Shown here: piece after piece, positions 1,502-61,960 of the stretch | How positions within the stretch are numbered: position 1 is the first letter of the stretch | How the letters are laid out: every line of letters starts with the position of its first letter | DNA from: an uncultured Pseudomonadales bacterium | GTDB lineage: Bacteria > Patescibacteriota > Microgenomatia > UBA1400 > UBA12108 | Direction of reading: 5' to 3' | Length of the DNA stretch: 64,000 nucleotides | Assembly (NCBI GenBank): GCA_964502225.1 | Contig: CAZCUC010000004.1 | Location: forward strand, 2,641-66,640 | Made by a program: the position numbers and the translations under genes | Notes under the pieces: model-generated | Databases searched by the model: none | Told to the model about the DNA's origin: nothing | Seen by the model: the letters and a program-made list of their open reading frames with translations, nothing else

Positions 1502-1519
1502 AAACAAACCTTTCCAGGT

Positions 1520-1569
1520 GATTTATGATTTATGATTCATGAATCTAGATTCTTAAATCTTAAATCAAG
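1520..1569. repeat. heptamer tandem-array element, copy a (TGATTTA units in both orientations, hairpin-forming) in the nusA-infB spacer
   Basis: gatttatgatttatgattcatgaatctagattcttaaatcttaaatcaag; the right half is the reverse complement of (A/T)GATTTA units. Confidence 0.6.
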
Positions 1570-21590: not shown

Positions 21591-22787
21591 ATGGCAGATA
21601 CGCTTGTACAACAACCAATCCCCCAGCCTAGTGAGGTACCGCCCGTCACGAGTGCACCACCTGTCATGAACACGCCTCCCGTCATGAGTGTACCTCCATC
21701 ACCGATTAGCCAAAAGGTAGAGCCACCAAAAAGCAAGATTAGCCTGGTCGTGGCAGGAGTCGTGGCACTGGTGATGATGGTCGGAGTGGGAGTATGGGGA
21801 TACTCGCAGTACAGTGGGACAAAGACACCACAAATAGCCAAGTTAACTGAGGAGTTGGATGGAGGAATTACAGTTACACAAACTCCGTCTGAAGAGGCAC
21901 AAGGCAAAGGTGGAACTGTATTTAAGGATGGGATACTGATTGGACATTTGAATAATTTAGAAGTAAACATTCCAGCAATTATCGCTAAGTGCAAGAAAGA
22001 CAAGGCAGAAACAGGCTGTACGATATCAGATATGAAAACATACCTGACGAATGCAGATAATAATTATGACAGTGTGATTGGCGGATCTTGTTCCGGTATT
22101 GAAAACAGCGAGTCACCATCCATTTGTGCTCAAGGACAGGGTCATTGTGTAGGTGGAATATGTCAGCCGGCGAATTGTGCAAATGGATATACCCCTTCTG
22201 CTGAGGGCTGTGTACCAAACCCTAGCTTGGCTTGTAAAGGTACAGACTATGGAGCTCCTGTGTGCTGTTACGACACCTCGTGTGCAGGGGGAACAATTGT
22301 TTGTGAGGCACCAGGCAGAAAGGAATGCAAAAGCACTGGTATAAATGGAGAAAAACACTGCCTTTTGGAGGCTAATTCTGTGGACTGCGGTGGTAAGGTG
22401 GATGAGCCAAATGAAAGGCGGAGTCCTAATCCTTCTCCAAGCGTGTCACCAAGCGTGAGACCTTCCCCTTCTCCATCTCCCTCACCAACCATGGCATGTA
22501 CTGGACTGACACAAACACCCGCGACACAACCAGTAGTAGGATCTAAACTTACATTCACTTGTGCAGGTTCTGTGACACCAAGCAACGCCTCTACCCTTTC
22601 CTACAATTTCCGCTACGCCATTAACAACGGAGCCTGGGTCAATCTAACCAACAAAACCACGGCGACGGCCGAGTTGACCATCAGCGCTTGCGGAACATAT
22701 AAAGTAGAGTGTAGAGCCTGCGCCACATTTGGTGGTTTAATCAAGTGTGATCCATTCTGGCAATATGCAGGAGTCCAACCACTATGA
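21591..22787 (+). CDS. surface protein A: Pro-rich cytoplasmic N-terminus, TM, Cys-rich region, Ser/Pro linker, C-terminal Cys-containing beta domain
   Basis: domain MACTGLTQTP...CRACATFGG shared with the 23992..25152 product. Confidence 0.55.
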   Translation: MADTLVQQPIPQPSEVPPVTSAPPVMNTPPVMSVPPSPISQKVEPPKSKISLVVAGVVALVMMVGVGVWGYSQYSGTKTPQIAKLTEELDGGITVTQTPSEEAQGKGGTVFKDGILIGHLNNLEVNIPAIIAKCKKDKAETGCTISDMKTYLTNADNNYDSVIGGSCSGIENSESPSICAQGQGHCVGGICQPANCANGYTPSAEGCVPNPSLACKGTDYGAPVCCYDTSCAGGTIVCEAPGRKECKSTGINGEKHCLLEANSVDCGGKVDEPNERRSPNPSPSVSPSVRPSPSPSPSPTMACTGLTQTPATQPVVGSKLTFTCAGSVTPSNASTLSYNFRYAINNGAWVNLTNKTTATAELTISACGTYKVECRACATFGGLIKCDPFWQYAGVQPL

Positions 22788-23968
22788 AAAAAGGTTTAAT
22801 CATCGGCTTCTCACTGTTTGCATTGGTGGTACTGATTGTGGGTGTCGTGTATATGGTACGTAAACCAAATATCAATGTAGTGACGGCTGATTGTGCTCCT
22901 AGGTACTACTACAATCTAGAATCAAAGTCCTGTGCCGCTACCACCAGAAACTACAACGCGGCCGAGATCGATTGTGATGGAGGCACTGGCAAGACATGTG
23001 TGGTGAATCTACAGGAATGGATGCCAGGGAAAACTGCCGGATCTTGTTACAAAACTATTGCTCAGTGCCAAGCGGCCAATAGTGGGACAACCACCACCTG
23101 TACTCCTCGCTACTACTACAACACGAAGACTCAGACCTGCACGGCCACTAATCGTAGCTACAACTCTCAAGACGTAGATTGTGATGGAGGTACTGGCAAG
23201 ACATGCGCGGCTAATCTACAAGACTGGGAAGCAGGCAACACAACTGGAATCTGCTATCCTTCTCAGATTGCATGTGCCAACGCTAATGGAGGCGGATCTA
23301 CAACCACCAACTCGTGCTCGAAAACATTTACAGTCGCTTGTGCTAACCCATCGGTTAGTCCTTCGCCAATCCCAAGTACCTCCGCCCCAGTTTATCCTTC
23401 CCCATCGCCCTCTAGCCCATCATCGGCTAGCTTGGACTGTGTCGCCAAGAAAATGTATGAGAATGATAGCCGCAACCGAGCTGGATTCTATTACATGGAG
23501 CGTGAGATCACAGATACCAACACAGTCCAGAATGGCCAAATCATTGTGTACAACATCGTGACCAGAAACAATGGAGGCAACAGCGTACCTGACACAACAA
23601 TTACCGACAGACTATCGACCAACCTAACTTATGTCGATGGAGATAGTGGCTGTGGCTATGACTCAAATACAAGGACTGTGACCTGTACGATTGGAACACT
23701 CTCACCAAATAGTGAAGCTCAGAGATCGTTTAGAGCTAGTGTGACAGTGGCTGGGACTACCTCGGTCGCCAACACAGCTGAGGTGACCTCGACCAACGGA
23801 CAAAGAGATAGTTGCAGTGTCTCAATTGATGCGACTGGAAGAGTGAGCGTTGTATCCTCTCCGGCACCTACTGCACTACCAGTTGCTGGTGTGTTTGAGG
23901 TGACAGCACTACCCCTCACCCTCGGACTACTACTACTGATCATTGGTGGACTGGGACTACTGGTGCTA
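22774..23968. repeat. direct repeat copy 1 (1195 bp, appears 100% identical to 25151-26345)
   Basis: identical DNA from 10 nt upstream of the ATG to the last sense codon of gene B. Confidence 0.8.
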
Positions 23969-23971
23969 TAG
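22784..23971 (+). CDS. surface protein B: signal-anchor, two Cys-rich PRYYYN/DCDGGTGKTC modules, Ser/Pro linker, DUF11-like domain, LPVAG-type C-terminal signal
   Basis: DUF11-like YNIVTRNNGGNSVPDTTITDRLSTNLTYV...TVTCTIGTLSPNSEAQRSFRASVTV; C-terminus LPVAGVFEVT plus hydrophobic tail. Confidence 0.65.
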   Translation: MKKGLIIGFSLFALVVLIVGVVYMVRKPNINVVTADCAPRYYYNLESKSCAATTRNYNAAEIDCDGGTGKTCVVNLQEWMPGKTAGSCYKTIAQCQAANSGTTTTCTPRYYYNTKTQTCTATNRSYNSQDVDCDGGTGKTCAANLQDWEAGNTTGICYPSQIACANANGGGSTTTNSCSKTFTVACANPSVSPSPIPSTSAPVYPSPSPSSPSSASLDCVAKKMYENDSRNRAGFYYMEREITDTNTVQNGQIIVYNIVTRNNGGNSVPDTTITDRLSTNLTYVDGDSGCGYDSNTRTVTCTIGTLSPNSEAQRSFRASVTVAGTTSVANTAEVTSTNGQRDSCSVSIDATGRVSVVSSPAPTALPVAGVFEVTALPLTLGLLLLIIGGLGLLVL

Positions 23972-23991
23972 ATTGACGTTTCTGAATATAT

Positions 23992-25152
23992 TTGAGACTA
24001 TGGAAGCAGGCACTGCGTATGGTGCTAATTGAGAGTAAGAATATGCCCGACTCAACCATAGATCCAAATTTATCCAACCCCCAAGCTTTAGTTGATGCCG
24101 CCTTGAGCGACACTACCGCACCAAAGCCGAGTTTACCTACGCTCGAGCCTCTGCAACCTAGCGAACCAGCACCCGTAGAAAAGTCTCCTGAAGTAGTAGT
24201 GGCTGATGTAAAAGTTCCTGAAGTAAAGGCTCCTGAAGTAAAAGTTGAAACTAACAACATAGAGATGAGTGACGAGACGCCCCTACAGTTCGTACAGCCG
24301 AGTGAGCCAGTCACACAGCCAATCCCCTTAACAGAGCCAGTTACACCACCCCTACCCAACCCACCCATGCCTCCGTCACCGACAGTAGTGGATAGCCAAG
24401 CGATGAAACCAAAAAGTAAACTGGGAGTAGTAGTTGGGGGAGTACTAATACTAGTATTGGCGCTGGGCGCTGGAGTGTGGGGCTATCTAGGGAGTCCGAC
24501 CGAAAAAAAACCTGCTCAGATAGCAGAGGCACAGGTTGCAGATGGGTGTACTGAAAACTGTGAAAGTAGTGGGAAAGTTTGTATATATAGTACAACCAAG
24601 AAAACTTACAGTTGTCAGAAAACTGGAGGACAAGAGGCATGTATACATACTATTTGCCCTGTTAACTATGTATGTGTAGAAGGAGGAGCTCAGGGAACTT
24701 ATTGTGAACCAAAAGAAGGAGGTAAGCCGCCGGGAGAAACGCTAACTTGCCCGCCAGGGACAAGAAGCAATGGACAGTGTGAGGATGGAGTTTTGAGACC
24801 ACCGTGCTGTGAACCAGATACCTCCCCATCCCCCTCACCGTCGACAACTACCACCGCCACAATGGCGTGCACAGGTCTGACCCAAACTCCAAGTACAACC
24901 CCAGTAGTTGGATCTAAACTAACATTCACTTGTAGTGGTTCAATTACCCCAAGCAATGCAGGTACCTTGTCGTATGAGTTTGTTTACAAACTCAATGCCG
25001 GCGGGTGGAAAAGCTTGAGTAACAAAACTACAAACACGGCCGAGCTGACTATCGCAACTTGCGGAGAATATATTGTGCATTGCCGTGCGTGTGCCACGAT
25101 CAATGGTAGCAAGCAATGTGACCCTGTTTGGAAGGACGTAGTAATACAATGA
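23992..25152 (+). CDS. surface protein A' (diverged paralog of A)
   Basis: same architecture; C-terminal domain MACTGLTQTPSTTPVVGSKLTFTC...CRACATINGSKQC. Confidence 0.55.
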   Translation: MRLWKQALRMVLIESKNMPDSTIDPNLSNPQALVDAALSDTTAPKPSLPTLEPLQPSEPAPVEKSPEVVVADVKVPEVKAPEVKVETNNIEMSDETPLQFVQPSEPVTQPIPLTEPVTPPLPNPPMPPSPTVVDSQAMKPKSKLGVVVGGVLILVLALGAGVWGYLGSPTEKKPAQIAEAQVADGCTENCESSGKVCIYSTTKKTYSCQKTGGQEACIHTICPVNYVCVEGGAQGTYCEPKEGGKPPGETLTCPPGTRSNGQCEDGVLRPPCCEPDTSPSPSPSTTTTATMACTGLTQTPSTTPVVGSKLTFTCSGSITPSNAGTLSYEFVYKLNAGGWKSLSNKTTNTAELTIATCGEYIVHCRACATINGSKQCDPVWKDVVIQ

Positions 25153-26345
25153 CAACCACTATGAAAAAAGGTTTAATCATCGGCTTCTCACTGTTTGCAT
25201 TGGTGGTACTGATTGTGGGTGTCGTGTATATGGTACGTAAACCAAATATCAATGTAGTGACGGCTGATTGTGCTCCTAGGTACTACTACAATCTAGAATC
25301 AAAGTCCTGTGCCGCTACCACCAGAAACTACAACGCGGCCGAGATCGATTGTGATGGAGGCACTGGCAAGACATGTGTGGTGAATCTACAGGAATGGATG
25401 CCAGGGAAAACTGCCGGATCTTGTTACAAAACTATTGCTCAGTGCCAAGCGGCCAATAGTGGGACAACCACCACCTGTACTCCTCGCTACTACTACAACA
25501 CGAAGACTCAGACCTGCACGGCCACTAATCGTAGCTACAACTCTCAAGACGTAGATTGTGATGGAGGTACTGGCAAGACATGCGCGGCTAATCTACAAGA
25601 CTGGGAAGCAGGCAACACAACTGGAATCTGCTATCCTTCTCAGATTGCATGTGCCAACGCTAATGGAGGCGGATCTACAACCACCAACTCGTGCTCGAAA
25701 ACATTTACAGTCGCTTGTGCTAACCCATCGGTTAGTCCTTCGCCAATCCCAAGTACCTCCGCCCCAGTTTATCCTTCCCCATCGCCCTCTAGCCCATCAT
25801 CGGCTAGCTTGGACTGTGTCGCCAAGAAAATGTATGAGAATGATAGCCGCAACCGAGCTGGATTCTATTACATGGAGCGTGAGATCACAGATACCAACAC
25901 AGTCCAGAATGGCCAAATCATTGTGTACAACATCGTGACCAGAAACAATGGAGGCAACAGCGTACCTGACACAACAATTACCGACAGACTATCGACCAAC
26001 CTAACTTATGTCGATGGAGATAGTGGCTGTGGCTATGACTCAAATACAAGGACTGTGACCTGTACGATTGGAACACTCTCACCAAATAGTGAAGCTCAGA
26101 GATCGTTTAGAGCTAGTGTGACAGTGGCTGGGACTACCTCGGTCGCCAACACAGCTGAGGTGACCTCGACCAACGGACAAAGAGATAGTTGCAGTGTCTC
26201 AATTGATGCGACTGGAAGAGTGAGCGTTGTATCCTCTCCGGCACCTACTGCACTACCAGTTGCTGGTGTGTTTGAGGTGACAGCACTACCCCTCACCCTC
26301 GGACTACTACTACTGATCATTGGTGGACTGGGACTACTGGTGCTA
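25151..26345. repeat. direct repeat copy 2 (1195 bp)
   Basis: identical to 22774-23968. Confidence 0.8.
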
Positions 26346-26348
26346 TGA
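25161..26348 (+). CDS. surface protein B' (exact duplicate of B)
   Basis: 395-aa product identical to B; start at MKKGLIIGF is preferred over the 25128 extension. Confidence 0.65.
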   Translation: MKKGLIIGFSLFALVVLIVGVVYMVRKPNINVVTADCAPRYYYNLESKSCAATTRNYNAAEIDCDGGTGKTCVVNLQEWMPGKTAGSCYKTIAQCQAANSGTTTTCTPRYYYNTKTQTCTATNRSYNSQDVDCDGGTGKTCAANLQDWEAGNTTGICYPSQIACANANGGGSTTTNSCSKTFTVACANPSVSPSPIPSTSAPVYPSPSPSSPSSASLDCVAKKMYENDSRNRAGFYYMEREITDTNTVQNGQIIVYNIVTRNNGGNSVPDTTITDRLSTNLTYVDGDSGCGYDSNTRTVTCTIGTLSPNSEAQRSFRASVTVAGTTSVANTAEVTSTNGQRDSCSVSIDATGRVSVVSSPAPTALPVAGVFEVTALPLTLGLLLLIIGGLGLLVL

Positions 26349-27352
26349 AAAAAGCGTTGCTGATTGCTCTACCTATTTTGATTGTAATTGGAGTGGTGGT
26401 TGGATACTTTTTCTATAGCAGAGAGAAAGTAGGGATTAATGAAGTAGTTCCAACTACTTGCGCACCCGGAACTCACCAAGTTTTTAATTATAATGCGGCA
26501 GGTAATCAGATTCCGCCTTACTGTGCCGCCGATACAACAGGGGCGACCAATACCCAGGCATCAGCGGCACCATCTACTTCGAGTAGTTGTGAGACAAAAC
26601 CAAATTGTTTGATAGTAAACCCGCCGACCTGCAAGGGACTACAGCCACCCGATGGTAAGACTTGGTGCGCAACCACGACAACTACTACTACCACAACGAC
26701 TACCACGGGTGATGCAACCTGCGCTAAGCGATACTACTATAGTTTAGATTCAAAGGGATGTGTTGCGACAACAAGAAATTATAACTCGGCAGAAATGGAT
26801 TGTGATGGCGGAACGGGTAAAACATGTGTGGTGAATCTGCAGGAAGCACTGCCCGGTAAAACTGGGGGCTCTTGTTTTAAAACTGAAGAGCTATGTCTGG
26901 CTTCTAAAGCAATTTGTTCTCCCAGATATTATTACAACACCGTGACTAAACTTTGTGTAGCGACAAACCGGAGCTATGACTCGAAGGATGTCGATTGTGA
27001 TGGCCAGACAAATAAAACCTGTACGGCCAATCTGCAAGACTGGGAGCCAGGGAGAACTACGGGAGTCTGTTATGCGTCTCAGACTACCTGCTTAGATGCC
27101 AACAAAACAACAACACAAACTACTAGTACCACGACAACTACTGCCGCAAGCCCGAGCCCGAGTCCCAGTGTGTCCTCTGGACTAGGAGGTGGGACAACAG
27201 TGACCCCTACCCCCTCGCCCTCTCCTAGAGCTGCTATGCCAGACACTAGTGAAGGAACACCAGTAACTGGCGTGTTTGAAGTGACGGCGGGAACTATTGG
27301 AATTGGTTTGTTGCTGTTGATCGCTGGTATATTTGGAATATTGATGTTTTGA
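26345..27352 (+). CDS. surface protein C: two PRYYYN/DCDGGTGKTC Cys-rich modules, poly-Thr linkers, TPVTG-type C-terminal signal
   Basis: modules CAKRYYYSLDSKGC...DCDGGTGKTC and CSPRYYYNTVTKLC...DCDGQTNKTC; C-terminus MPDTSEGTPVTGVFEVT plus hydrophobic tail. Confidence 0.6.
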   Translation: MKKALLIALPILIVIGVVVGYFFYSREKVGINEVVPTTCAPGTHQVFNYNAAGNQIPPYCAADTTGATNTQASAAPSTSSSCETKPNCLIVNPPTCKGLQPPDGKTWCATTTTTTTTTTTTGDATCAKRYYYSLDSKGCVATTRNYNSAEMDCDGGTGKTCVVNLQEALPGKTGGSCFKTEELCLASKAICSPRYYYNTVTKLCVATNRSYDSKDVDCDGQTNKTCTANLQDWEPGRTTGVCYASQTTCLDANKTTTQTTSTTTTTAASPSPSPSVSSGLGGGTTVTPTPSPSPRAAMPDTSEGTPVTGVFEVTAGTIGIGLLLLIAGIFGILMF

Positions 27353-33504: not shown

Positions 33505-34497
33505 ATGATTTCAAAGACTGAATGGAATAAACAAGTAGATCACCCACTACAGGCTTACGAGTGGGGGGAGTTTAGGCAGGCTACTGGAGTAAAGGTAGTG
33601 AGAGAGAGTGGGATGCAGATTACGATCCACAAGATTCCGCACACCCCCTGGAATGTAGGATATGCACCAAAGACGGGGATGATAACGGAGAAACAAAGTA
33701 GCGTCCTCAGTAAAGTCGCAAAAGAGAATAATTGTATTTTTATCAAAGTGGAGCCGAAGATAGAAATGCAAGATTCTAGGAGAGAGATGTTGGATTTTAG
33801 GAAATGGGGATTTGTCGCAGGGCGACCACTGTTTACCAAATTTAACTTTGTGCTGGATGTGACTCCGAGTGAAGAGGTACTGCTCTCGAGCTTTAAACAG
33901 AAAACTAGGTACAACATTAAAGTGGCAGAGAAACGAGGAGTAACAGTAGAAATTGATAATAGTGAGGCCGCATTTGAGCGATACTTACAACTGACCGAAG
34001 AGACCACTAAACGACAAGGTTTTTATGCTCACTCGCGTGAGTACCACAAAAGGATGTGGGAGGTGCTAAATAATTCTCCAATCTCAAATTCTCAAATTCT
34101 CAAATTGAGCGCAAATCTATTGGTTGCGAGATATCAGGGCGAGATAATTACAACCTGGGTGCTGTTTAGCTTTGGCGACACGCTCTACTACCCCTACGGT
34201 GCTAGTACCAGAGAACATCGAGAGGTAATGGCGAACAATCTAGTAATGTGGGAGGCGATCAAGTTGGCCAAGAAATGGGGACTGCGATATCTGGATATGT
34301 GGGGAGCACTAGGGCCTGAACCAGATAGTCACGATCCGTGGTACGGATTCCATAACTTTAAATCGGGATACGGGGCACGACATGTCGAGTACGTAGGTAC
34401 ATGGGATTACGTGGCCATGCCACTACTGTACAAACTTTACAGAGTGGGTGAGAAGTTGAGATGGTGGTGGCTACGAACCAAAAAAGCTCGTGACTAG
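33505..34497 (+). CDS. FemAB-family peptidoglycan interpeptide-bridge peptidyltransferase-like protein
   Basis: FemABX-like twin GNAT-fold layout, TRYNIKVAEKRGV-type motif. Confidence 0.55.
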   Translation: MISKTEWNKQVDHPLQAYEWGEFRQATGVKVVRESGMQITIHKIPHTPWNVGYAPKTGMITEKQSSVLSKVAKENNCIFIKVEPKIEMQDSRREMLDFRKWGFVAGRPLFTKFNFVLDVTPSEEVLLSSFKQKTRYNIKVAEKRGVTVEIDNSEAAFERYLQLTEETTKRQGFYAHSREYHKRMWEVLNNSPISNSQILKLSANLLVARYQGEIITTWVLFSFGDTLYYPYGASTREHREVMANNLVMWEAIKLAKKWGLRYLDMWGALGPEPDSHDPWYGFHNFKSGYGARHVEYVGTWDYVAMPLLYKLYRVGEKLRWWWLRTKKARD

Positions 34498-34531: not shown

Positions 34532-34717
34532 TTATTTGCGTTTTTTAGCAACTTTTTTGACGGTTTTCTTGACAACTTTCTTTACAGGTTTCTTAGCGAC
34601 TTTTTTAACTACTTTTTTAACAGTCTTTTTGACAGCTTTTTTAGGAGCAGCTTTCTTGGCTGGAGCTTTCTTTACTGATTTCTTGGACAACAATTTTTTG
34701 AATAGTTTTTTTAGCAT
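34532..34717 (-). CDS. Lys/Ala-rich histone H1-like DNA-binding protein (61 aa)
   Basis: (KKxVKK)n repeats; start at MLKKLFKK with an AGGTGA SD. Confidence 0.55.
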   Translation of the reverse strand: MLKKLFKKLLSKKSVKKAPAKKAAPKKAVKKTVKKVVKKVAKKPVKKVVKKTVKKVAKKRK

Positions 34718-39209: not shown

Positions 39210-39575
39210 ATGAAGTGGATACCAAAATTGATGAGCTTGACAGTTCTCTGGGGTAGTCTAGTCGTTGTGATTGTTTATGTAGATCCTTTACTACTAAAGG
39301 ATTTTTTTATCCCAAATTCGTATTCCTCATTTTTTGTTCTTCTAGAGATAGTTATTTGGTACACCTTGGCATTAATCTTCAAATCTCCCCTGAAAAGTTT
39401 ATTGGTATCGTCTACGATCGTCTTGGGTATTGGACTCACGGTGGCGAGATTGATGCATGCTGGACTGATAATAGTATTGCTCTTGACTTTATGTATTGAA
39501 AGTTGGTATATCTATCGTAGCCATGAAAAAATCAAACAATCCAATGAATCAAAAGATAGAGAGCCAGGTGTATAA
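39210..39575 (+). CDS. small polytopic membrane protein, hypothetical
   Basis: 3-4 TM segments; 3' end overlaps the next gene. Confidence 0.4.
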   Translation: MKWIPKLMSLTVLWGSLVVVIVYVDPLLLKDFFIPNSYSSFFVLLEIVIWYTLALIFKSPLKSLLVSSTIVLGIGLTVARLMHAGLIIVLLLTLCIESWYIYRSHEKIKQSNESKDREPGV

Positions 39576-39885
39576 GATCCTGTACCAAGTGATTGCTGAT
39601 GCCAAAAACGAGATTGACGTCGAAATAACCCTCAAAGCCCTGATGAGTGAGAACGAGCTATCGGCGATTGCCAAGCGACTGGCGATTGCGGTGTTTTTGG
39701 ATAAGCGACAATCATATGACCATATCAAGGATGTACTTAAAGTTTCGACTGCTACGATTGCCTCGGTAGCTGAAAATATGAATAACCGCGGCATCCAGCA
39801 GGCTCTGACTAGGGTAAAGGCTGAGGAATGGGCGGATGTATGGAGTATCCGTCTCTCCCGCGCCCTCGAGAAATTGATGAAATGA
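39544..39885 (+). CDS. TrpR-like (YerC/YecD family) DNA-binding protein
   Basis: HTH region SENELSAIAKRLAIAVFLDKRQSYDHIKDVLKVSTATIASV. Confidence 0.55.
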   Translation: MNQKIESQVYKILYQVIADAKNEIDVEITLKALMSENELSAIAKRLAIAVFLDKRQSYDHIKDVLKVSTATIASVAENMNNRGIQQALTRVKAEEWADVWSIRLSRALEKLMK

Positions 39886-39963: not shown

Positions 39964-41424
39964 ATGGCTAAAAGCTTTTATTTAACGACTACCCTGCCTT
40001 ACGTCAATTCCAAACCCCACATCGGGTTCGCCCTGGAAATTATTCAAGCCGATGCGATTGCTCGCTACCACCAAAGTCTTGGCGAAGAGATCTTCTTTAA
40101 CACAGGAACGGATGAGCACGGTAAAAAGATTTATGAAAAAGCAATTGAGGAAGGTAAAGACCCGCAAGCTTATACTGATGAATATGCCGCTAAATTTGAT
40201 GCGCTTAAATCTTCGCTTAATCTAAGTTACAACCATTTCATCCGTACTACTAATCCACACCACAAGCAGGCGGCTCAAGAACTGTGGAAACGATGCGAAC
40301 AAAATGGATATATTGAAAAAGCAGTGTATGAGGCCAAATACTGTGTAGGGTGCGAACTAGAGAAAACTGACTCAGACTTGGTGGAGGGCAAGTGTCCCCT
40401 GCATCCCAACAAAGAGATTGAATTGATTAAAGAGGAGAACTATTTCTTCAAATTTTCTGACCCAAGGGTTCAAAAAGCGCTCCTTGCCCATATGGACAAA
40501 TACAGCGACTTTGTGGTGCCGGCACATAGGCAAAAGGAGATTCGCAACTTTGTGGAGGGAGGACTGCAAGACTTCTCCATTTCGCGCCTCAAAGAAAAAA
40601 TGCCATGGGGAGTAGAAGTTCCCGGTGACCCTGATCACGTGATGTATGTGTGGTTTGATGCGCTCACCAACTATATAAGTACGATTGGCTGGCCCTCCTC
40701 CGCTGAAGCTTCGGCGGGCAGGCCCTCTGAATTTGAGAAGTATTGGGGAACAAAGGAACAACCTCAAGCCGTGCAAATTGCCGGCAAAGACAACCTGCGC
40801 CAGCAATCGTCTATGTGGCAAGCCATGCTTTTTGCGGGTGATCTGCCACTGACCAGACAAATCCTGATCCACGGATTTATTACGTCGGGTGGACAGAAAA
40901 TGAGCAAGTCACTGGGTAACGTAATTGACCCACTGGAATACAGCGAGAAGTATGGGGTGGATGCATTGCGCTATTACTTACTAGCCAAAGTGAGTCCGTT
41001 TGAAGACAGTGATTTTACTAAGGAGAAGTTTGAGGAAGTCTATAAATCTGATTTGCAGAACGGGCTAGGTAACCTCGTCGCTCGCGTGGCGGCGATGGCG
41101 GAAAAATCAGACTTAAGATTTAAGATTTTAGATTTAAGAATGAGCACTGAGATCACAGATGCGCTGGGTGAATACAAGTTTGATACTGCGATGGCGAGTA
41201 TTTGGGACAAAATAAAAAAGGCTGATCAATTCGTGTCAGAAAAACGAGTTTGGACTTTAAGTGGCGGTGAACTAGAATCTGCATTACAGAGACTAGTAAA
41301 TGACATTGGACAAATCGCAATTGATCTGACACCGTTTATGCCAGAGACCGCGAAAAAAATTGCTATGCAGTATAACCAAGAAAAAATATCTAAGAGCGAA
41401 CCAATGTTTCCGCGCCTCGCTTAA
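39964..41424 (+). CDS. metG: methionyl-tRNA synthetase (short form)
   Basis: class I aaRS HIGH-region variant (KPHIGFALEI), KMSKS, anticodon-binding domain. Confidence 0.9.
   Translation: MAKSFYLTTTLPYVNSKPHIGFALEIIQADAIARYHQSLGEEIFFNTGTDEHGKKIYEKAIEEGKDPQAYTDEYAAKFDALKSSLNLSYNHFIRTTNPHHKQAAQELWKRCEQNGYIEKAVYEAKYCVGCELEKTDSDLVEGKCPLHPNKEIELIKEENYFFKFSDPRVQKALLAHMDKYSDFVVPAHRQKEIRNFVEGGLQDFSISRLKEKMPWGVEVPGDPDHVMYVWFDALTNYISTIGWPSSAEASAGRPSEFEKYWGTKEQPQAVQIAGKDNLRQQSSMWQAMLFAGDLPLTRQILIHGFITSGGQKMSKSLGNVIDPLEYSEKYGVDALRYYLLAKVSPFEDSDFTKEKFEEVYKSDLQNGLGNLVARVAAMAEKSDLRFKILDLRMSTEITDALGEYKFDTAMASIWDKIKKADQFVSEKRVWTLSGGELESALQRLVNDIGQIAIDLTPFMPETAKKIAMQYNQEKISKSEPMFPRLA
41110..41143. repeat. heptamer array element, copy b, in-frame in metG (encodes DLRFKILDLRM)
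   Basis: gacttaagatttaagattttagatttaagaatg = (AGATTTA)x3-4. Confidence 0.65.
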
Positions 41425-41425
41425 T

Positions 41426-41968
41426 ATGAATTACCGCGACCAATCATTTAGTGCGGATGAATTAAAGGGAGAACAATTCGATAATTGTACCTTTAGTAAC
41501 TGCAAATTCTTTAAAGCCAATCTCAAATTTAGTTCGTTTGTGAAATGTGAGTTTAATTCATGCGATTTCACTGGTGTCATCCTTGAATCTACTTCGTTTG
41601 AGAAATGCATTTTCCCGGGATCAAAACTGAGCAACAATGATTTTGTCTCGACCATTTTTATCGAGTGTAACTTTGGTGAATGTGTGATGGACAATACCAT
41701 CTTCCATACTGGCAAACTAAAGAAGTGTATTTTTGCAAAATCGTCGCTGGTTGGATCGGTGTTTGAAAAATGTGATGTCAGCGAGTTTAATTTTAACGGA
41801 GCAAAACTAAGCAGAGCACTCTTTGATACCTGTAAAATGAAAAAGACTACCCTGCTCGAAGCGGATCTCGAAGGTACGAGCTTCCTTGGCTCCATGATCG
41901 ACCAAACAGAGCTGGACATGCAAGGATTTGTGCAATACGGACAAGGACAAGGATTTAAACTATGTTGA
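41426..41968 (+). CDS. pentapeptide-repeat protein
   Basis: tandem A(D/N)LxF-like pentapeptides (CTFSNCKFFKANLKFSSFVKCEFNSCDF...); start at MNYRDQ. Confidence 0.7.
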   Translation: MNYRDQSFSADELKGEQFDNCTFSNCKFFKANLKFSSFVKCEFNSCDFTGVILESTSFEKCIFPGSKLSNNDFVSTIFIECNFGECVMDNTIFHTGKLKKCIFAKSSLVGSVFEKCDVSEFNFNGAKLSRALFDTCKMKKTTLLEADLEGTSFLGSMIDQTELDMQGFVQYGQGQGFKLC

Positions 41969-42723
41969 TCGACACACACGCGCATTTGTGGTGGGACAGC
42001 TATAAAGATGACCTAGATCAGGTTTTGGCGCGCGCGAAAGAGGCCAGGGTAGAGAAAATTATTGCCCCCGGGACAGACATGGAGAGCAGTAGAAAGGCAG
42101 TGGAGCTGGCCAGGAAGTACCCTGGAGTGATTTATGCCAGCGTGGGGGTACACCCGGAGGAGGTAGGCAAGATTGATTTAAGATTTATGATTCAAGATTT
42201 AAGAAAAATGGTGACCGAGCATAAGGGTGTCGTTGTCGCCACTGGAGAGATTGGGACTGATGCGAGTACTGAAGAATTAAAAAACTGCATGAGTCAGCAA
42301 AAAGAATTGTTTAGAGAGCAGTGCTTGCTGGCACTAGAATTCGAGTTGCCGGTAATTATTCACACTAGAGAGAGCCTGAATGAGGCGCTAGAAGTACTCG
42401 ACTCGCTACCCAACATGCCTCGGGGTCAGTTCCATTGCTTCTCTCATGATGAGGCGGGGTTAAAGGAGGTTTTAGCGCGAGGATTTTACGTGAGTTTTTG
42501 TGGCAATATAACCTGGAGTAAGCGGGTAGCCAAGCTCGTTACTCTTGTGCCAGATGGCCGACTGCTCCTGGAAACGGACTCGCCATTTATGTGGGCTGGG
42601 GCAAGGAATGAGCCGACAAATGTGGCAATCCTGGCAGAAAAGATTGCGGAACTTAGAGGAATAAGTGATAGAGAAATCGAAGAGATAACAACGAAGAACG
42701 CAAACACGTTATACAAGTTATAA
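41962..42723 (+). CDS. tatD: TatD-family metal-dependent hydrolase/DNase
   Basis: IDTHAHL...; TIM-barrel TatD motifs. Confidence 0.85.
   Translation: MLIDTHAHLWWDSYKDDLDQVLARAKEARVEKIIAPGTDMESSRKAVELARKYPGVIYASVGVHPEEVGKIDLRFMIQDLRKMVTEHKGVVVATGEIGTDASTEELKNCMSQQKELFREQCLLALEFELPVIIHTRESLNEALEVLDSLPNMPRGQFHCFSHDEAGLKEVLARGFYVSFCGNITWSKRVAKLVTLVPDGRLLLETDSPFMWAGARNEPTNVAILAEKIAELRGISDREIEEITTKNANTLYKL
42175..42210. repeat. heptamer array element, copy c, in-frame in tatD (encodes DLRFMIQDLRKM)
   Basis: gatttaagatttatgattcaagatttaagaaaaatg. Confidence 0.65.
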
Positions 42724-50986: not shown

Positions 50987-51541
50987 ATGAGAAAAACCTG
51001 GCATAAAGCCGCAATTTTTGATAAACAGACTTTTTCGCGTGTGTTTGGGATGCAGATGGCTGGCATGGCTATGGCCCTGTCGATTGTGACCTATCCGACA
51101 CATGCGTTTGACTATAACCTCACAACTGAAGGACAGAGAGAATCTCAGGATCTAGTGGTCACTACTTCTACCCAGTACCAGTTCCCGGTCAGCCAAACTC
51201 TGGGTATGTCTCAGGGATATCATGCCTTGCATGCTGGGATTGATTTGCGTGCACCACGTGGAACAGCTATTTTGGCCATGGACGGTGGAGTAGTGATCGA
51301 GGTCGAGAAAATGTTGGTTGGATATGGCCATTTTGTACGTATTGCTCACCAGGGTACTCTATCTACCCTTTATGCCCATCTAGATCAAGTAAGCGTAAAA
51401 CCTGGCGAGAAAGTGGAGAGAGGACAACAGATCGGCACAGTGGGGATGACTGGCTGGTCGACTGGGCCACATCTACACTTTGAGGTCTATGACGGGAACA
51501 AAGCGGTGAATCCAATGGGATATATCGGGAACAAGAATTAA
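50987..51541 (+). CDS. M23-family (LytM-like) metallopeptidase
   Basis: HxxxD (HAGIDL) and HLH (GPHLHFE) zinc-ligand motifs. Confidence 0.75.
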   Translation: MRKTWHKAAIFDKQTFSRVFGMQMAGMAMALSIVTYPTHAFDYNLTTEGQRESQDLVVTTSTQYQFPVSQTLGMSQGYHALHAGIDLRAPRGTAILAMDGGVVIEVEKMLVGYGHFVRIAHQGTLSTLYAHLDQVSVKPGEKVERGQQIGTVGMTGWSTGPHLHFEVYDGNKAVNPMGYIGNKN

Positions 51542-51563
51542 GATTCTAGATTTATGATTTAAG
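51534..51563. repeat. heptamer array element, copy d, between the convergent M23 and pyrH stop codons
   Basis: aagaattaagattctagatttatgatttaag. Confidence 0.55.
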
Positions 51564-60613: not shown

Positions 60614-61393
60614 TCAGACAGTCTGGTCTATCTGGCTTTCTGAGTGTTCTGGTTGTCTGATTTCTTCTGGCGGTTTTGGCGTGTATTTGTCCACTAGTTT
60701 TTGACCCCACTCCTGGAGGAGCTTGACTGCGTGGTAGACGGCCGAAAAAACCAGTGAAGTAATGACAAAAATCTTTTTACCTGAGGGAAGAAACATAAAA
60801 ATAACAAAAGAACCAATGGGTAAGACTATTTGGAGCAGGGCTTTGTCTTTGCGGGAAATAGGCAAGGGAGACCGCAAAGCAACCAAAACTTCAACAACAA
60901 AAATCATAATTGATTGAACTAAGTTGAGAGTGGCGTTGGTATGGCTAAGATCATATTTGCCTAAGAATAGTAGATTGATGTGGTCTGGAGTCGGAACAAA
61001 ATCGTAGAGGAGGTAAAAATCGGCCCCCTCGAGACCGGTCGTAAATATGCGGTAAAGCATGATGATAATGGCAAGGCCAATAATTAGGTTGGCAGTAGTC
61101 GCCAAGACCGAGCGAAGATTACTACGCATGATTGATTTGATCTCGGCTCGTAGGCGGATGGGCTCGTGTGAGTAGACCTGTTTGGCTTGTTCGACTTGGT
61201 CGATGATTTTCTTTTTTTCTTCTTCGGAGCGCTCACCTGCCAGACGAAGGGGGAAAAGAATAACTTGAATAATAATCGAAAAAATAATGACGGCAACACC
61301 CATGTCGGCCAACTCGGGGGAGATTTTGCCTAGTAGCTCGTAGAGTCCGACGAGAATATTAAAAAAGGGTGCGTAGACGTATTTCTCAAACAT
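60614..61393 (-). CDS. yidC: YidC/Oxa1-family membrane protein insertase (short type)
   Basis: 5 TM core with the conserved hydrophilic groove region (IIQVILFPLRL...), coiled-coil cytoplasmic loop. Confidence 0.65.
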   Translation of the reverse strand: MFEKYVYAPFFNILVGLYELLGKISPELADMGVAVIIFSIIIQVILFPLRLAGERSEEEKKKIIDQVEQAKQVYSHEPIRLRAEIKSIMRSNLRSVLATTANLIIGLAIIIMLYRIFTTGLEGADFYLLYDFVPTPDHINLLFLGKYDLSHTNATLNLVQSIMIFVVEVLVALRSPLPISRKDKALLQIVLPIGSFVIFMFLPSGKKIFVITSLVFSAVYHAVKLLQEWGQKLVDKYTPKPPEEIRQPEHSESQIDQTV

Positions 61394-61417
61394 AAGTTAG
61401 ATTATAGACGATAGATG

Positions 61418-61960
61418 TTAGATGTTGGCTTTTTGGATGATCTTGGTGGTGGAAATATCTGGATTCCAGTCGTGGACAATGACCAAGCGACCGCCGTATT
61501 TTTCGGTTAGTAGTTGTTTGTTGTTGAGATAGGAGGTGTGGGAACTCACGGCATAGATATCGGGGCGGACGGCTGACATGAGGGACTCGTAGGCTTCGAG
61601 GTGATCAAAATTGGAAGAAAGAGAAATGACAAAATCAACTATGTGTCCATTAGGGCCAGGCCTCGCAGGTAAACTGCTCGGACCTGCAAGGCCTGGCCCT
61701 GCAGGGATATCGAGATCCAATAGATGCTGACAACGTACTGGCTGGGTTTCGACGGGTCTCCCCTCACCTTTAATTTTGCGGGCTCGCTCATCGGACTCGA
61801 CCCCGACGATCAAAACATCCCCTGATGCCTTGGCTTTTTGCAGGAAATTCACGTGCTCAGCGTGAAGGAGATCAAAGAAGCCAGTGGCGAGAACGATAGT
61901 TTTACCCTCAGCGTGGAGCTGGACGCAGATGGGAGTAATAGTTTTGATAGTGTGAAACAT
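61418..61960 (-). CDS. cytidylyltransferase-like nucleotidyltransferase (TagD/RfaE domain II-like) with an in-frame Pro/Gly-rich insertion
   Basis: GxFDLLHxxH signature (TGFFDLLHAEH); 21-aa insert IPAGPGLAGPSSLPARPGPNG encoded by a GC-rich inverted repeat. Confidence 0.6.
   Translation of the reverse strand: MFHTIKTITPICVQLHAEGKTIVLATGFFDLLHAEHVNFLQKAKASGDVLIVGVESDERARKIKGEGRPVETQPVRCQHLLDLDIPAGPGLAGPSSLPARPGPNGHIVDFVISLSSNFDHLEAYESLMSAVRPDIYAVSSHTSYLNNKQLLTEKYGGRLVIVHDWNPDISTTKIIQKANI
61652..61700. repeat. 19-bp inverted repeat (1 mismatch) with an 11-nt spacer, in-frame inside the cytidylyltransferase gene
   Basis: agggccaggcctcgcaggt aaactgctcgg acctgcaaggcctggccct; also a nested palindrome ccctgcaggg. 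Confidence 0.65.

What the first reader, a model, noticed from the sequence alone, without database searches (positions are those of the whole stretch)
41110..42210. The same repeat element sits in-frame in metG and tatD, giving both the peptide DLRF(K/M)I(L/Q)DLR(M/K)
The sequences gacttaagatttaagattttagatttaagaatg (metG) and gatttaagatttatgattcaagatttaagaaaaatg (tatD) are about 85% identical tandem arrays of the heptamer AGATTTA. Three heptamers make 21 nt, or 7 codons, so the array is frame-neutral. In two unrelated housekeeping enzymes it encodes a near-identical 11-aa segment in the same relative frame. This is the signature of a small mobile or expanding repeat that tolerates insertion into coding sequence, analogous to the in-frame palindromic elements of Rickettsia, but heptamer-based.
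Basis: seen in the sequence. Interest (0 to 1): 0.8.

Follow-up and report, generated by a model that had tools for sequence, protein, structure and literature searches.

The report
In-frame heptamer DNA repeat arrays
Two essential genes of an uncultured Woesebacteria-like bacterium each carry, in frame, the same 35-base run of a 7-base DNA repeat, and this run stays unchanged at silent codon positions and matches between the two genes within a genome, so it behaves as a DNA-level element rather than a protein motif.

Summary
metG (41109-41143) and tatD (42174-42208) each contain five in-frame units of the heptamer WGATTTA, encoding DLRFKILDLRM and DLRFMIQDLRK. Shuffled sequence gives none.

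It is not a recent insertion. Orthologues down to about 65% protein identity carry five-unit arrays at the same sites and in the same register. MetRS gains no length; TatD gains 2-4 residues.

The feature is at DNA level:
- It uses minor codons (TTA 13% of Leu, AGA 19% of Arg).
- Silent positions are frozen inside the arrays: 9/9 and 8/8 identical codons, against 34-44% in the rest of the genes.
- The one codon that would be TAA or TAG is always changed.
- Arrays cluster by "dialect" (AGATTTA versus AGATGCT/AGATTCC), not by gene.
- The predicted models fold the peptide differently in the two proteins.

The same array also lies in frame in rsmI of another candidate-phyla-radiation (CPR) lineage, in two intergenic gaps of this window, and in every intergenic gap examined of one phage.

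Best reading: an old, self-homogenising heptanucleotide array family, copied between loci and tolerated at permissive protein sites. Its function and mobility are unproven. I class it as a new variant of known heptamer and in-frame repeat families.

The parts
41109..41143 (+). Five-unit heptamer array in frame in metG (AGACTTA AGATTTA AGATTTT AGATTTA AGAATGA). It encodes MetRS residues 383-393, DLRFKILDLRM.
   Evidence: The AlphaFold2 model places it in an ordered coil between helices 353-382 and 395-402.
42174..42208 (+). Five-unit heptamer array in frame in tatD (TGATTTA AGATTTA TGATTCA AGATTTA AGAAAAA). It encodes TatD residues 72-82, DLRFMIQDLRK.
   Evidence: The AlphaFold2 model places it at the N-terminal part of helix 73-86.
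1519..1567 (-). Intergenic array between the nusA stop and the infB start. Direct WGATTTA units are followed by inverted TAAATCA units, making a dyad.
   Evidence: It folds as an RNA hairpin of -17.3 kcal/mol, z -2.84, with 0 of 200 shuffles folding as well.
51534..51563 (+). Array AGAATTA AGATTCT AGATTTA TGATTTA in the 22-bp gap between the convergent genes for an M23 peptidase and a 238-aa ORF that I read as pyrH without testing; it overlaps the peptidase stop codon.
   Evidence: No significant fold.
61396..61426 (.). Weaker period-7 array (GTTAGAT, 4.4 copies). It lies in the 24-nt gap directly upstream of the start codon of minus-strand gene 60614-61393, in antisense orientation to that gene.
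   Evidence: Its relation to the WGATTTA arrays is only by resemblance.
39964..41424 (+). metG (methionyl-tRNA synthetase, 486 aa), host of the first array.
41962..42723 (+). tatD (TatD-family hydrolase, 253 aa), host of the second array.
41426..41968 (+). Pentapeptide-repeat gene lying between the two arrays. It is given as context only. It is absent from L208, L209 and L210, which still carry an array in metG (and in tatD in L208 and L209), and from L087, which carries one in tatD, so it is not linked to the arrays.

Best explanation
The two segments are copies of one short tandem DNA repeat: five units of a heptanucleotide, WGATTTA in this genome and roughly NGATTNN in general. The repeat has sat for a long time, in frame, at structurally tolerant positions of MetRS and TatD.

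What is shown:
- The arrays are orthologous across a Woesebacteria subclade.
- They are constrained at nucleotide level, not at peptide level.
- The single stop codon that a perfect array would contain has been mutated away.
- Arrays in the two genes of one genome resemble each other more than they resemble their own orthologues in genomes of the other dialect.

What is inferred:
- Silent sites stay frozen because bases that diverge in one unit are re-templated from neighbouring units, through transient misalignment or template switching without a change in length.
- Occasional non-reciprocal copying moves a whole 'repaired' array from one locus to the other. The two arrays are 1,065 bp apart in direct orientation. 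The copying could be ectopic gene conversion or re-seeding from other copies such as the intergenic ones.
- Homologous recombination among strains then shuffles array alleles.

On this reading the protein only needs an open frame and an amphipathic segment. The array is a tolerated passenger, not an adaptation of the enzymes.
For: 1. Same site, same register, five units in metG of six genomes with 67-99% MetRS identity, and at the same site in tatD of six genomes with 65-96% identity, four to five units long.
2. The arrays use minor codons: TTA is 13% of Leu and AGA 19% of Arg in this window.
3. Silent sites are frozen. For residues conserved between orthologues, codons inside the array are identical in 9/9 (tatD, window vs L087), 8/8 and 7/7 (metG, L082 vs L083 and L082 vs L210). 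In the rest of the same genes the figure is 34-44%. One-sided Fisher p ranges from 0.0006 to 0.04 in eight of nine comparisons.
4. Array-only identity. L087 tatD matches the window at 32/33 bases, while the 36 nt immediately downstream match at about 53% by my hand count on the alignment.
5. The identity matrix clusters by dialect, not by gene. Within group A, identity is 26-33/33. Within group B, it is 22-32/33. Between groups, it is 17-24/33. In L208, metG and tatD share 31 of 35 bases by my hand count (29/33 in the matrix register), while L208 metG and window metG share 22/33.
6. Stop repair. (GATTTAA)3 ends in TAA, and the seventh codon is TTA, CAA, AAT, CGA or GAT in every coding copy. 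Apart from the decayed L209 tatD copy, every dialect-B copy in both genes carries the same repaired unit AGATTCC (AGATTTC in L085), which indicates copying after the repair.
7. AlphaFold2 predicts the same peptide as coil in MetRS and helix in TatD.
8. L084 is 100% identical to the window across most of tatD but carries a dialect-B array on a divergent patch of about 80 nt, which shows allele shuffling by recombination.
Against: - Frozen silent sites and the array-only identity with L087 are explained equally well, or better, by direct selection on the nucleotide sequence. L087 has no partner array in its metG.
- Homogenisation without a length change inside a 35-nt coding array is a postulated mechanism and was not observed here.
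- No variation in unit number that would document slippage was seen in metG. The tatD length difference in L084 is 6 nt, not 7 or 21.
- Only two, at most three, independent lineages show high metG-tatD similarity within a genome. In other pairs the two loops differ (P0044/P0207; the L084 hybrid).
- The same unit in a third gene (rsmI) and in a phage calls for a common source that this model does not specify.
Confidence: 0.45

Rival explanations
1. Functional heptad site. The arrays are cis-acting sites read by a sequence-specific factor that binds one unit every 7 nucleotides. On DNA this could be a ribbon-helix-helix protein of the omega type. On RNA it could be a ring protein of the HutP or TRAP type, or S1/Csp-type binding as proposed for the TAACTGA repeats. 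Purifying selection on the nucleotides keeps silent sites frozen, and the dialects track the specificity of the factor. The coding copies would be sites embedded in genes.
For: - Silent sites are frozen in arrays of genomes with about 35% protein divergence.
- The match to L087 is confined to the array, at 32/33 bases.
- Intergenic copies lie next to gene starts: upstream of infB and directly upstream of the start of gene 60614-61393.
- A tailed phage (L246/L248/L249) has 14 matches in 14.3 kb, all within 8 intergenic gaps, as direct and inverted sets. In at least one case (L246) the array abuts the Shine-Dalgarno sequence.
- TAACTGA heptamer repeats in Beggiatoaceae lie just upstream of start codons and were proposed to be binding sites for a regulator (PMC4679880).
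Against: - No candidate factor was found. The small ORFs of the window include no ribbon-helix-helix, HutP or TRAP-like protein.
- The arrays match no Rfam family, show no promoter-like enrichment, and the coding copies have no RNA structure.
- Orientation relative to transcription is not uniform: sense in metG and tatD, antisense at 61396.
- L084 combines a dialect-A metG array with a dialect-B tatD array, which is awkward if one factor reads whole units.
- Arrays are absent from close relatives such as L211, so they are dispensable.
Confidence: 0.3
2. Mobile mini-element. A short heptamer-based element inserts, or is pasted by illegitimate recombination, into many places. It survives in coding sequence only at permissive sites, independently in different genes and lineages.
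For: - The same dialect-A array is in frame in rsmI of a marine Patescibacteria genome (L043, peptide LIEDLRFKIDDL).
- The motif DLR[FL]xIxDL is common in Magasanikbacteria-type RsmI.
- The same loops of TatD, MetRS and RsmI carry other in-frame, GC-rich palindromic elements in relatives.
- Intergenic and phage copies exist.
- The distribution of arrays is patchy relative to overall gene similarity.
Against: - MetRS and RsmI gain no length (27 residues between the DPG and PGxSA motifs with or without the array). TatD gains only 2-4 residues.
- Site and register are identical across orthologues.
- There are no terminal inverted repeats, target-site duplications or linked transposase.
- Only 4 copies occur in 64 kb, and none occur outside metG and tatD in about 110 kb of related genomes.
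- No word of 8-10 bases is over-represented in the way DNA uptake sequences are.
Confidence: 0.15
3. Chance or convergence at protein level. Both proteins independently evolved a similar amphipathic peptide from AT-rich codons.
For: - The peptide alternates polar and hydrophobic residues.
- It aligns with native hydrophobic positions of the array-less orthologues, for example SIEQVTQLI against MIQDLRKMV in TatD.
Against: - Shuffled sequence gives zero matches.
- The codons used are minor ones.
- Codon choice is identical across orthologues and between the two genes.
- The predicted structures differ: coil in one protein, helix in the other.
- The same order of residues recurs in three unrelated folds.
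Confidence: 0.03

Closest known systems
Heptanucleotide long simple sequence repeats of prokaryotes (Mrazek et al. 2007, as summarised in PMC4679880) and cyanobacterial STRR heptamers (from my own knowledge)
   Same: Tandem head-to-tail copies of a 7-nt unit. One unit is favoured in a given genome and recurs at several loci. Polymerase misalignment is the presumed source.
   Different: Those repeats are mostly intergenic and vary in unit number. The arrays here are fixed at five units, lie inside essential genes, are conserved as orthologues over about 35% protein divergence, and have the stop codon edited out.
TAACTGA direct repeats of marine Beggiatoaceae, some cyanobacteria and some Bacteroidetes (MacGregor 2015, PMC4679880)
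   Same: A single heptamer in sets of 2-6 copies at many loci. Most sets lie just upstream of start codons and a few lie inside ORFs at peripheral positions. The distribution across phyla is patchy and no transfer mechanism is known.
   Different: The heptamer is different. There are 169 sets per genome there against a handful here. No matching between loci within a genome, or silent-site freezing in essential genes, appears in the parts of that paper I read.
Rickettsia palindromic elements (RPEs; Ogata et al. 2000, from my own knowledge)
   Same: A repeated DNA element found in frame inside unrelated housekeeping genes at permissive surface positions.
   Different: RPEs are 100-150 bp long, palindromic, add a peptide segment, and are numerous. 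The arrays here are 35 nt long, direct, unstructured, add little or no length, and are few. The GC-rich palindromic segments seen in relatives' TatD, MetRS and RsmI loops are the closer analogue of RPEs.
Heptad operator or centromere arrays bound by the omega repressor of plasmid pSM19035 (WATCACW heptads; from my own knowledge)
   Same: Contiguous 7-bp units in direct and inverted orientation, 4 or more per site, located in intergenic control regions. The phage copies and the nusA-infB copy have this layout.
   Different: The sequence is different. No cognate ribbon-helix-helix protein was identified. To my knowledge omega sites are not found inside coding sequence.

Membership tests
Rickettsia palindromic element-like in-frame selfish repeat | The element is palindromic and can fold into a stable hairpin. 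| tested here: not met
   The coding copies fold no better than shuffled sequence (z -0.73 and +0.47). The units are direct, not inverted.
Rickettsia palindromic element-like in-frame selfish repeat | The element adds an extra peptide segment relative to orthologues that lack it. | tested here: not met
   The MetRS loop has the same length with and without the array. TatD is 2-4 residues longer than the basal 249-aa forms.
Rickettsia palindromic element-like in-frame selfish repeat | Many dispersed copies occur in coding and non-coding DNA of one genome. | tested here: inconclusive
   There are 4 copies in 64 kb, 2 coding and 2 intergenic. The rest of the genome was not available.
Heptanucleotide simple sequence repeat | Head-to-tail copies of a 5-11 nt unit, in runs longer than chance allows. 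| tested here: met
   Tandem Repeats Finder gives period 7 with 4.3-4.4 copies. Shuffles give 0 matches.
Heptanucleotide simple sequence repeat | Unit number varies among strains through slippage. | tested here: not met
   All six metG orthologues have five units. The only length difference in tatD is 6 nt. Read-level data were not examined.
TAACTGA-type dispersed heptamer direct repeats | The same heptamer recurs at several loci, mainly just upstream of start codons, in sets of 2-6 copies. | tested here: inconclusive
   The same unit occurs at 4 loci with 4-7 units each. One copy is upstream of infB, a related array abuts a start codon at 61396, and two copies are internal to genes. The heptamer itself is different.
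[quoted passage not shown] | Terminal inverted repeats flanked by a target-site duplication. | tested here: not met
   The sequences show no inverted termini or duplicated flanks at the coding copies.
Omega-type heptad operator or centromere | A cognate ribbon-helix-helix protein binds contiguous 7-bp units. | not testable with these tools
   No ribbon-helix-helix gene was found among the small ORFs of the window. Binding cannot be tested computationally here.
DNA uptake sequence | A short motif that is strongly over-represented across the genome, at about 1 per kb. | tested here: not met
   No word of 8-10 bases related to the array is over-represented in the window.

The most novel reading that the evidence does not exclude
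The NGATTNN heptad arrays are cis-acting sites for a still unknown factor that reads one unit every 7 nucleotides and is shared by these bacteria and a phage. In this reading the sites survive inside essential coding sequence (metG, tatD, rsmI) under nucleotide-level selection. That would amount to a regulatory or segregation code overlaid on protein code, with genome-specific dialects that co-evolve with the factor.
Probability: 0.15. Interest if true: 0.8.

Novelty: new variant of a known kind. Interest (0 to 1): 0.6.

Why it matters
If the reading holds, it shows that a tiny tandem DNA repeat can live for a long evolutionary time inside essential enzyme genes. It would dictate 11 residues of protein sequence, keep its silent positions frozen, and stay matched between unrelated genes in the same genome. 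That makes it a clean natural case of DNA-level processes overriding codon-level evolution, whether by homogenisation, inter-locus copying or selection on an embedded site. It also bears on methods. Such segments would mislead protein alignments, dN/dS estimates and recombination scans in candidate-phyla-radiation (CPR) genomes. Finally, it points to defined permissive sites in MetRS, TatD and RsmI where these minimal genomes repeatedly accept repeat-derived sequence.

Tried and rejected
- Rfam (gathering thresholds) on the window and 16 array loci: only a tRNA was found.
- Promoter and terminator scan of 40800-42500: no enrichment at the arrays.
- RNA folding of the coding arrays: no structure.
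- Over-represented words of 8-10 bases, as a test for a DNA uptake sequence: none related to the array.
- Pfam scan of small ORFs for a ribbon-helix-helix, HutP or TRAP-like binder: none found. A conserved TrpR-like gene lies upstream of metG, but it is also present in array-less relatives.
- Metagenome scan with the degenerate pattern GAYNNNAGATTYNAGATNNNNGATNNNAGA: at least 120 AGATTnn arrays, but none in metG or tatD. The pattern itself forces the conserved core, so position-specific conservation could not be established. Clustering of the flanking ORFs gave no linked gene family.
- Idea that the two arrays are direct repeats bounding the inserted pentapeptide-repeat gene: rejected, because L208 has both arrays and no such gene.
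- Idea that the dialects are a TTAA/CTAG palindrome swap: rejected, because the tetramers are out of register.
- Idea of an internal translation start at the ATG after each array: rejected for tatD, because that ATG is not conserved (ATA, TTA in L082, L087, L208).
- GAT-phased arrays of 4 or more units in 1.35 Mb of other CPR loci: only 3, no more than for control trinucleotides. The phenomenon is therefore not CPR-wide.
Full report
**1. The observation**

The window has 47% G+C. Its closest MetRS relatives in genome collections are labelled Woesebacteria or Microgenomates of the candidate phyla radiation (CPR).

Both quoted strings are present exactly, at 41110-41142 and 42175-42210. They lie inside ORFs 39964-41424 and 41962-42723. 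Pfam identifies these as a class I methionyl-tRNA synthetase and a TatD hydrolase.

- Tandem Repeats Finder reports period 7 with 4.4 and 4.3 copies.
- Each array reads as five units. In metG: AGACTTA AGATTTA AGATTTT AGATTTA AGAATGA. In tatD: TGATTTA AGATTTA TGATTCA AGATTTA AGAAAAA.
- A degenerate 28-mer covering both copies has 3 sites in the window and none in 100 shuffles.

- 1519-1567, between the nusA stop and the infB start. It has direct and then inverted units.
- 51534-51563, in the 22-bp gap between a convergent M23 peptidase gene and a 238-aa ORF that I read as pyrH without testing.

A weaker GTTAGAT array at 61396-61426 abuts a start codon.

The same scan of 1.35 Mb from 80 other CPR loci finds only two comparable arrays. 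The motif is therefore about 40 times denser here.

'Same relative frame' is not an additional coincidence. Because 7 and 3 share no factor, every frame of one strand of a heptamer array yields the same cycle of 7 codons.

**2. It is not a recent insertion**

A graded series of relatives was recovered for both proteins, and DNA was fetched for ten of them.

In MetRS the segment has the same length in every close relative, whether or not it carries the motif. Examples are AFSFPATKITL in P0006 at 86% identity, DLKFKINDLRM at 77%, and DARFQILEARM at 83%. The pattern D-x-R-F-[KQE]-[IM]-x-D-x-[RS]-[MI]-S is widespread in the clade.

In DNA, the metG arrays of six genomes (67-99% MetRS identity) all have five units in the same register:
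- L082: AGATTTA AGATTTA AGATTCA AGATTTA AGAATGA
- L083: GGATTTA AAATTTA AGATTAA TGATTTA AGAATGA
- L210: TGATTCA AGATTTA ATATTCA AGATTCA AGAATAA
- L208: AGATGCT AGATTCC AGATTTT AGAAGCT AGGATGA
- L209: AGATGTT AGATTCC AGATGAT AGATATT AGTATGA

tatD shows the same thing. TatD forms with an array are only 2-4 residues longer than the basal 249-aa forms. The second half of the array peptide (MIQDLRKMV) aligns with the native helix of those forms (SIEQVTQLI).

In L211 (86% MetRS identity, no array) the segment has equal length. Its nucleotide identity there is 33-43%, against about 80% in the flanks.

**3. It is a DNA-level feature**

(a) The arrays use minor codons. TTA is 13% of Leu codons and AGA 19% of Arg codons in this window.

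(b) Silent sites are frozen. For residues conserved between orthologues, codons inside the arrays are identical in the following comparisons, while in the rest of the same genes only 34-44% of such codons are identical:

| Comparison | Identical codons in array | One-sided Fisher p |
|---|---|---|
| tatD, window vs L087 | 9/9 | 0.0006 |
| metG, L082 vs L083 | 8/8 | 0.0017 |
| metG, L082 vs L210 | 7/7 | 0.0016 |
| metG, L083 vs L210 | 5/5 | 0.0065 |

(c) The match to L087 is confined to the array. It is 32/33 there, with about 53% (my hand count on the alignment) in the 36 nt immediately downstream.

(d) A perfect (GATTTAA)3 reads GAT TTA AGA TTT AAG ATT TAA. In every coding copy the seventh codon is something else: TTA, CAA, AAT, CGA or GAT. 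Likewise (AGATGCT)n would read TGC TAG. Apart from the decayed L209 tatD copy, every dialect-B copy in both genes has the same repaired unit AGATTCC (TTC CAG; AGATTTC in L085).

(e) AlphaFold2 models (pLDDT 86-87) place the peptide in different structures. In MetRS it is an ordered coil between two helices. In TatD it is the N-terminal part of a barrel helix. There is therefore no common structural role.

**4. Dialects and copying between loci**

I built an identity matrix of the fourteen 33-nt arrays. It clusters them by unit type, not by gene.

- Group A (AGATTTA) contains metG of the window, L082, L083, L084 and L210, and tatD of the window, L082 and L087. Pairwise identity is 26-33/33.
- Group B (AGATGCT/AGATTCC) contains metG of L208 and L209, and tatD of L208, L209, L084 and L085. 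Pairwise identity is 22-32/33.
- Between the groups, identity is 17-24/33.

Within L208, the metG and tatD arrays share 31 of 35 bases by my hand count (29/33 in the matrix register), while L208 metG matches window metG at only 22/33. L082 metG and tatD differ at one base in 30.

The shared repaired unit of group B in both genes implies that an already repaired array was copied from one gene to the other.

L084 has a metG 99% identical to the window and a tatD that is 100% identical over most of its length. Even so, it carries a dialect-B array on a divergent patch of about 80 nt bounded by the conserved HPEEV and GEIG codons. Array alleles are therefore also shuffled among strains by homologous recombination.

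**5. Wider occurrence**

- **A third gene.** In L043, a marine Patescibacteria genome whose MetRS is 55% identical, a dialect-A array lies in frame in rsmI and encodes LIEDLRFKIDDL. The sequence is TGATTGA AGATTTA AGATTTA AGATTGA TGATTTG. The motif DLR[FL]xIxDL is common among Magasanikbacteria-type RsmI proteins, again with no change in length: 27 residues between DPG and PGxSA in 70 of 120 homologues. DNA could be checked only for L043.
- **Shared permissive sites.** The same three protein sites host other in-frame, GC-rich palindromic segments in relatives. Examples are KVRPS...SRSDL, KSSDLS...LRSEL, EETP...ESP and LQDSPGL...SRDLL in TatD. Others are IRHTAYGIR-type segments in MetRS and a 29-residue segment in L040 RsmI. 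These are permissive sites that repeatedly accept repeat-derived sequence.
- **A phage.** A scan of viral contigs found a tailed phage (portal, capsid, protease). All 14 matches in 14.3 kb of L249 fall in the 8 intergenic gaps that contain any. They form inverted sets of WGATTTA units that make long hairpins. In at least one case, in the sister locus L246, the array abuts the Shine-Dalgarno sequence.
- **The nusA-infB copy.** This copy in the window has the same layout and is the only window copy that folds significantly (z -2.84).
- **Metagenomes.** A metagenome scan returned at least 120 AGATTnn arrays in contigs of 28-68% G+C, none in metG or tatD. The search pattern itself imposes the conserved core, so I draw no conclusion from their position-specific conservation. 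No linked gene family emerged from their flanks.

**6. Interpretation**

Shown:
- An old, orthologous, in-frame heptanucleotide array is present in two (elsewhere three) unrelated housekeeping genes.
- It is constrained at nucleotide level.
- Its stop codon has been edited out.
- It is shared between loci within genomes.
- It is exchanged among strains.

Inferred, and my preferred reading (confidence 0.45): the array maintains itself through misalignment-templated correction between neighbouring units. Occasionally it is copied whole between the two loci, which are 1,065 bp apart, or from other copies. The protein merely tolerates an amphipathic segment.

The main rival (0.3) is direct selection on the nucleotides as a heptad binding site on DNA or RNA. 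It explains the frozen silent sites and the L087 identity at least as well, and it fits the intergenic and phage copies. However, it lacks any candidate factor. It also sits uneasily with the L084 hybrid and with the fact that arrays are dispensable in close relatives.

Recurrence in three genes and the shared permissive sites favour it. Equal length, identical register, low copy number and the absence of transposon hallmarks argue against it.

Protein-level convergence is effectively excluded (0.03).

**7. Comparison with known systems**

The closest described systems are the heptanucleotide simple sequence repeats of prokaryotes and the TAACTGA direct repeats of Beggiatoaceae (PMC4679880). 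TAACTGA repeats also recur at many loci, lie next to start codons, occasionally sit inside ORFs, and have an unexplained patchy distribution.

RPEs share only the idea of an in-frame repeat in housekeeping genes. Their defining features of a palindrome, added length and high copy number were tested here and were not met.

What is new here:
- fixed-length orthologous arrays inside essential genes;
- freezing of silent sites;
- editing out of the stop codon;
- dialect matching between genes.

**8. Limits**

- Only 64 kb of the source genome and about 110 kb from close relatives could be read.
- Matching between the two loci rests on two to three independent lineages.
- No read-level data were analysed.
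- Mechanism and function remain inferred.

Noticed in passing
window 40690-40730 (metG): A GC-rich near-perfect palindrome, CCGCTGAAGCTTCGGCGG at 40700-40717, lies in frame and encodes SSAEASAGRPS. MetRS relatives of 478-479 aa have only EDTN or EDEA here, so this is a net insertion of 7-8 residues. The AlphaFold2 model gives pLDDT below 50 for residues 247-253. Variants such as SSAKASAGK and FDSAQGKP occur in other relatives. This is closer to an RPE-like insertion than the heptamer arrays are.
   Followed up: partly
TatD loop between HPEE and GEIG in relatives (e.g. L210 11661-11790; proteins P0130-P0240): This loop is a hot spot for in-frame, GC-rich palindromic segments of at least four types: KVRPS..SRSDL, KSSDLS..LRSEL, EETP..ESP and LQDSPGL..SRDLL. 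In L210 the segment is bounded by the 13-nt inverted repeat CAGGATTCTCCTG / CAGGAGAATCCTG.
   Followed up: partly
L040 rsmI, between the DPG and PGPSA codons: A 29-residue GC-rich segment (SEARRAKSKYPPVEEGDPSTPLRSAQDD) is inserted in frame at the same RsmI site that carries the heptamer array in L043.
   Followed up: no
L246, L248, L249 (IMG/VR 3300032163_001985 and 3300036766_000602): In this tailed phage, each of the 8 intergenic gaps of L249 that contain matches, between structural genes, holds inverted sets of WGATTTA heptamers forming hairpins of roughly 100-200 nt. There are 14 matches in 14.3 kb and none in coding sequence. The host is unknown.
   Followed up: partly
L088-L167 (metagenome contigs): At least 120 arrays of AGATTnn heptamers, typically 5-6 units and up to 14, occur in contigs of 28-68% G+C. 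Roughly half (44 of 80) lie outside any open frame of 100 or more residues. Several long arrays (L161, L163) keep a GATT core with variable flanking bases beyond the searched pattern.
   Followed up: partly
window 41426-41968: A pentapeptide-repeat gene sits between metG and tatD here and in L082-L085 and L211. In L208, L209, L210 and more distant CPR genomes, tatD follows metG directly.
   Followed up: partly
window 41962-42723 compared with L084 and L082: tatD alleles of near-identical strains are mosaics. Stretches of 100% identity are interrupted by patches of 54-69% identity, which indicates frequent recombination with divergent donors.
   Followed up: partly
L001 (Logan contig SRR12762304_47139), position 1-24: An independent assembly of the same organism breaks exactly at the metG array. 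This suggests a repeat-induced or polymorphism-induced branch in the assembly graph.
   Followed up: no
window 22970-27003 and 55823: The 11-mer CCATCACAATC occurs 7 times against 0.02 expected. Six copies are on the minus strand, in pairs about 200 nt apart, inside the run of similar-sized ORFs at 22784-27352. This probably reflects paralogous genes or repeated domains.
   Followed up: no
L081 about 11960-11995 (tatD, antisense strand): A different heptamer array (GATTTGC, 3-5 units) lies in frame at another position of a TatD gene, encoding ...IANRKSQI....
   Followed up: no
window 39496-39885: A TrpR-like (PF01371) gene lies immediately upstream of metG. It is in the same position in all ten related contigs fetched by protein look-up whose sequence reaches upstream of metG, whether or not they carry arrays.
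   Followed up: partly
window 34072-34106 and 34540-34643: Other tandem repeats lie near a 73-aa ORF with no Pfam match: an 8-nt unit AATTCTCA (4.5 copies) and a 12-nt unit TTTTTTAACAAC (8.6 copies).
   Followed up: no
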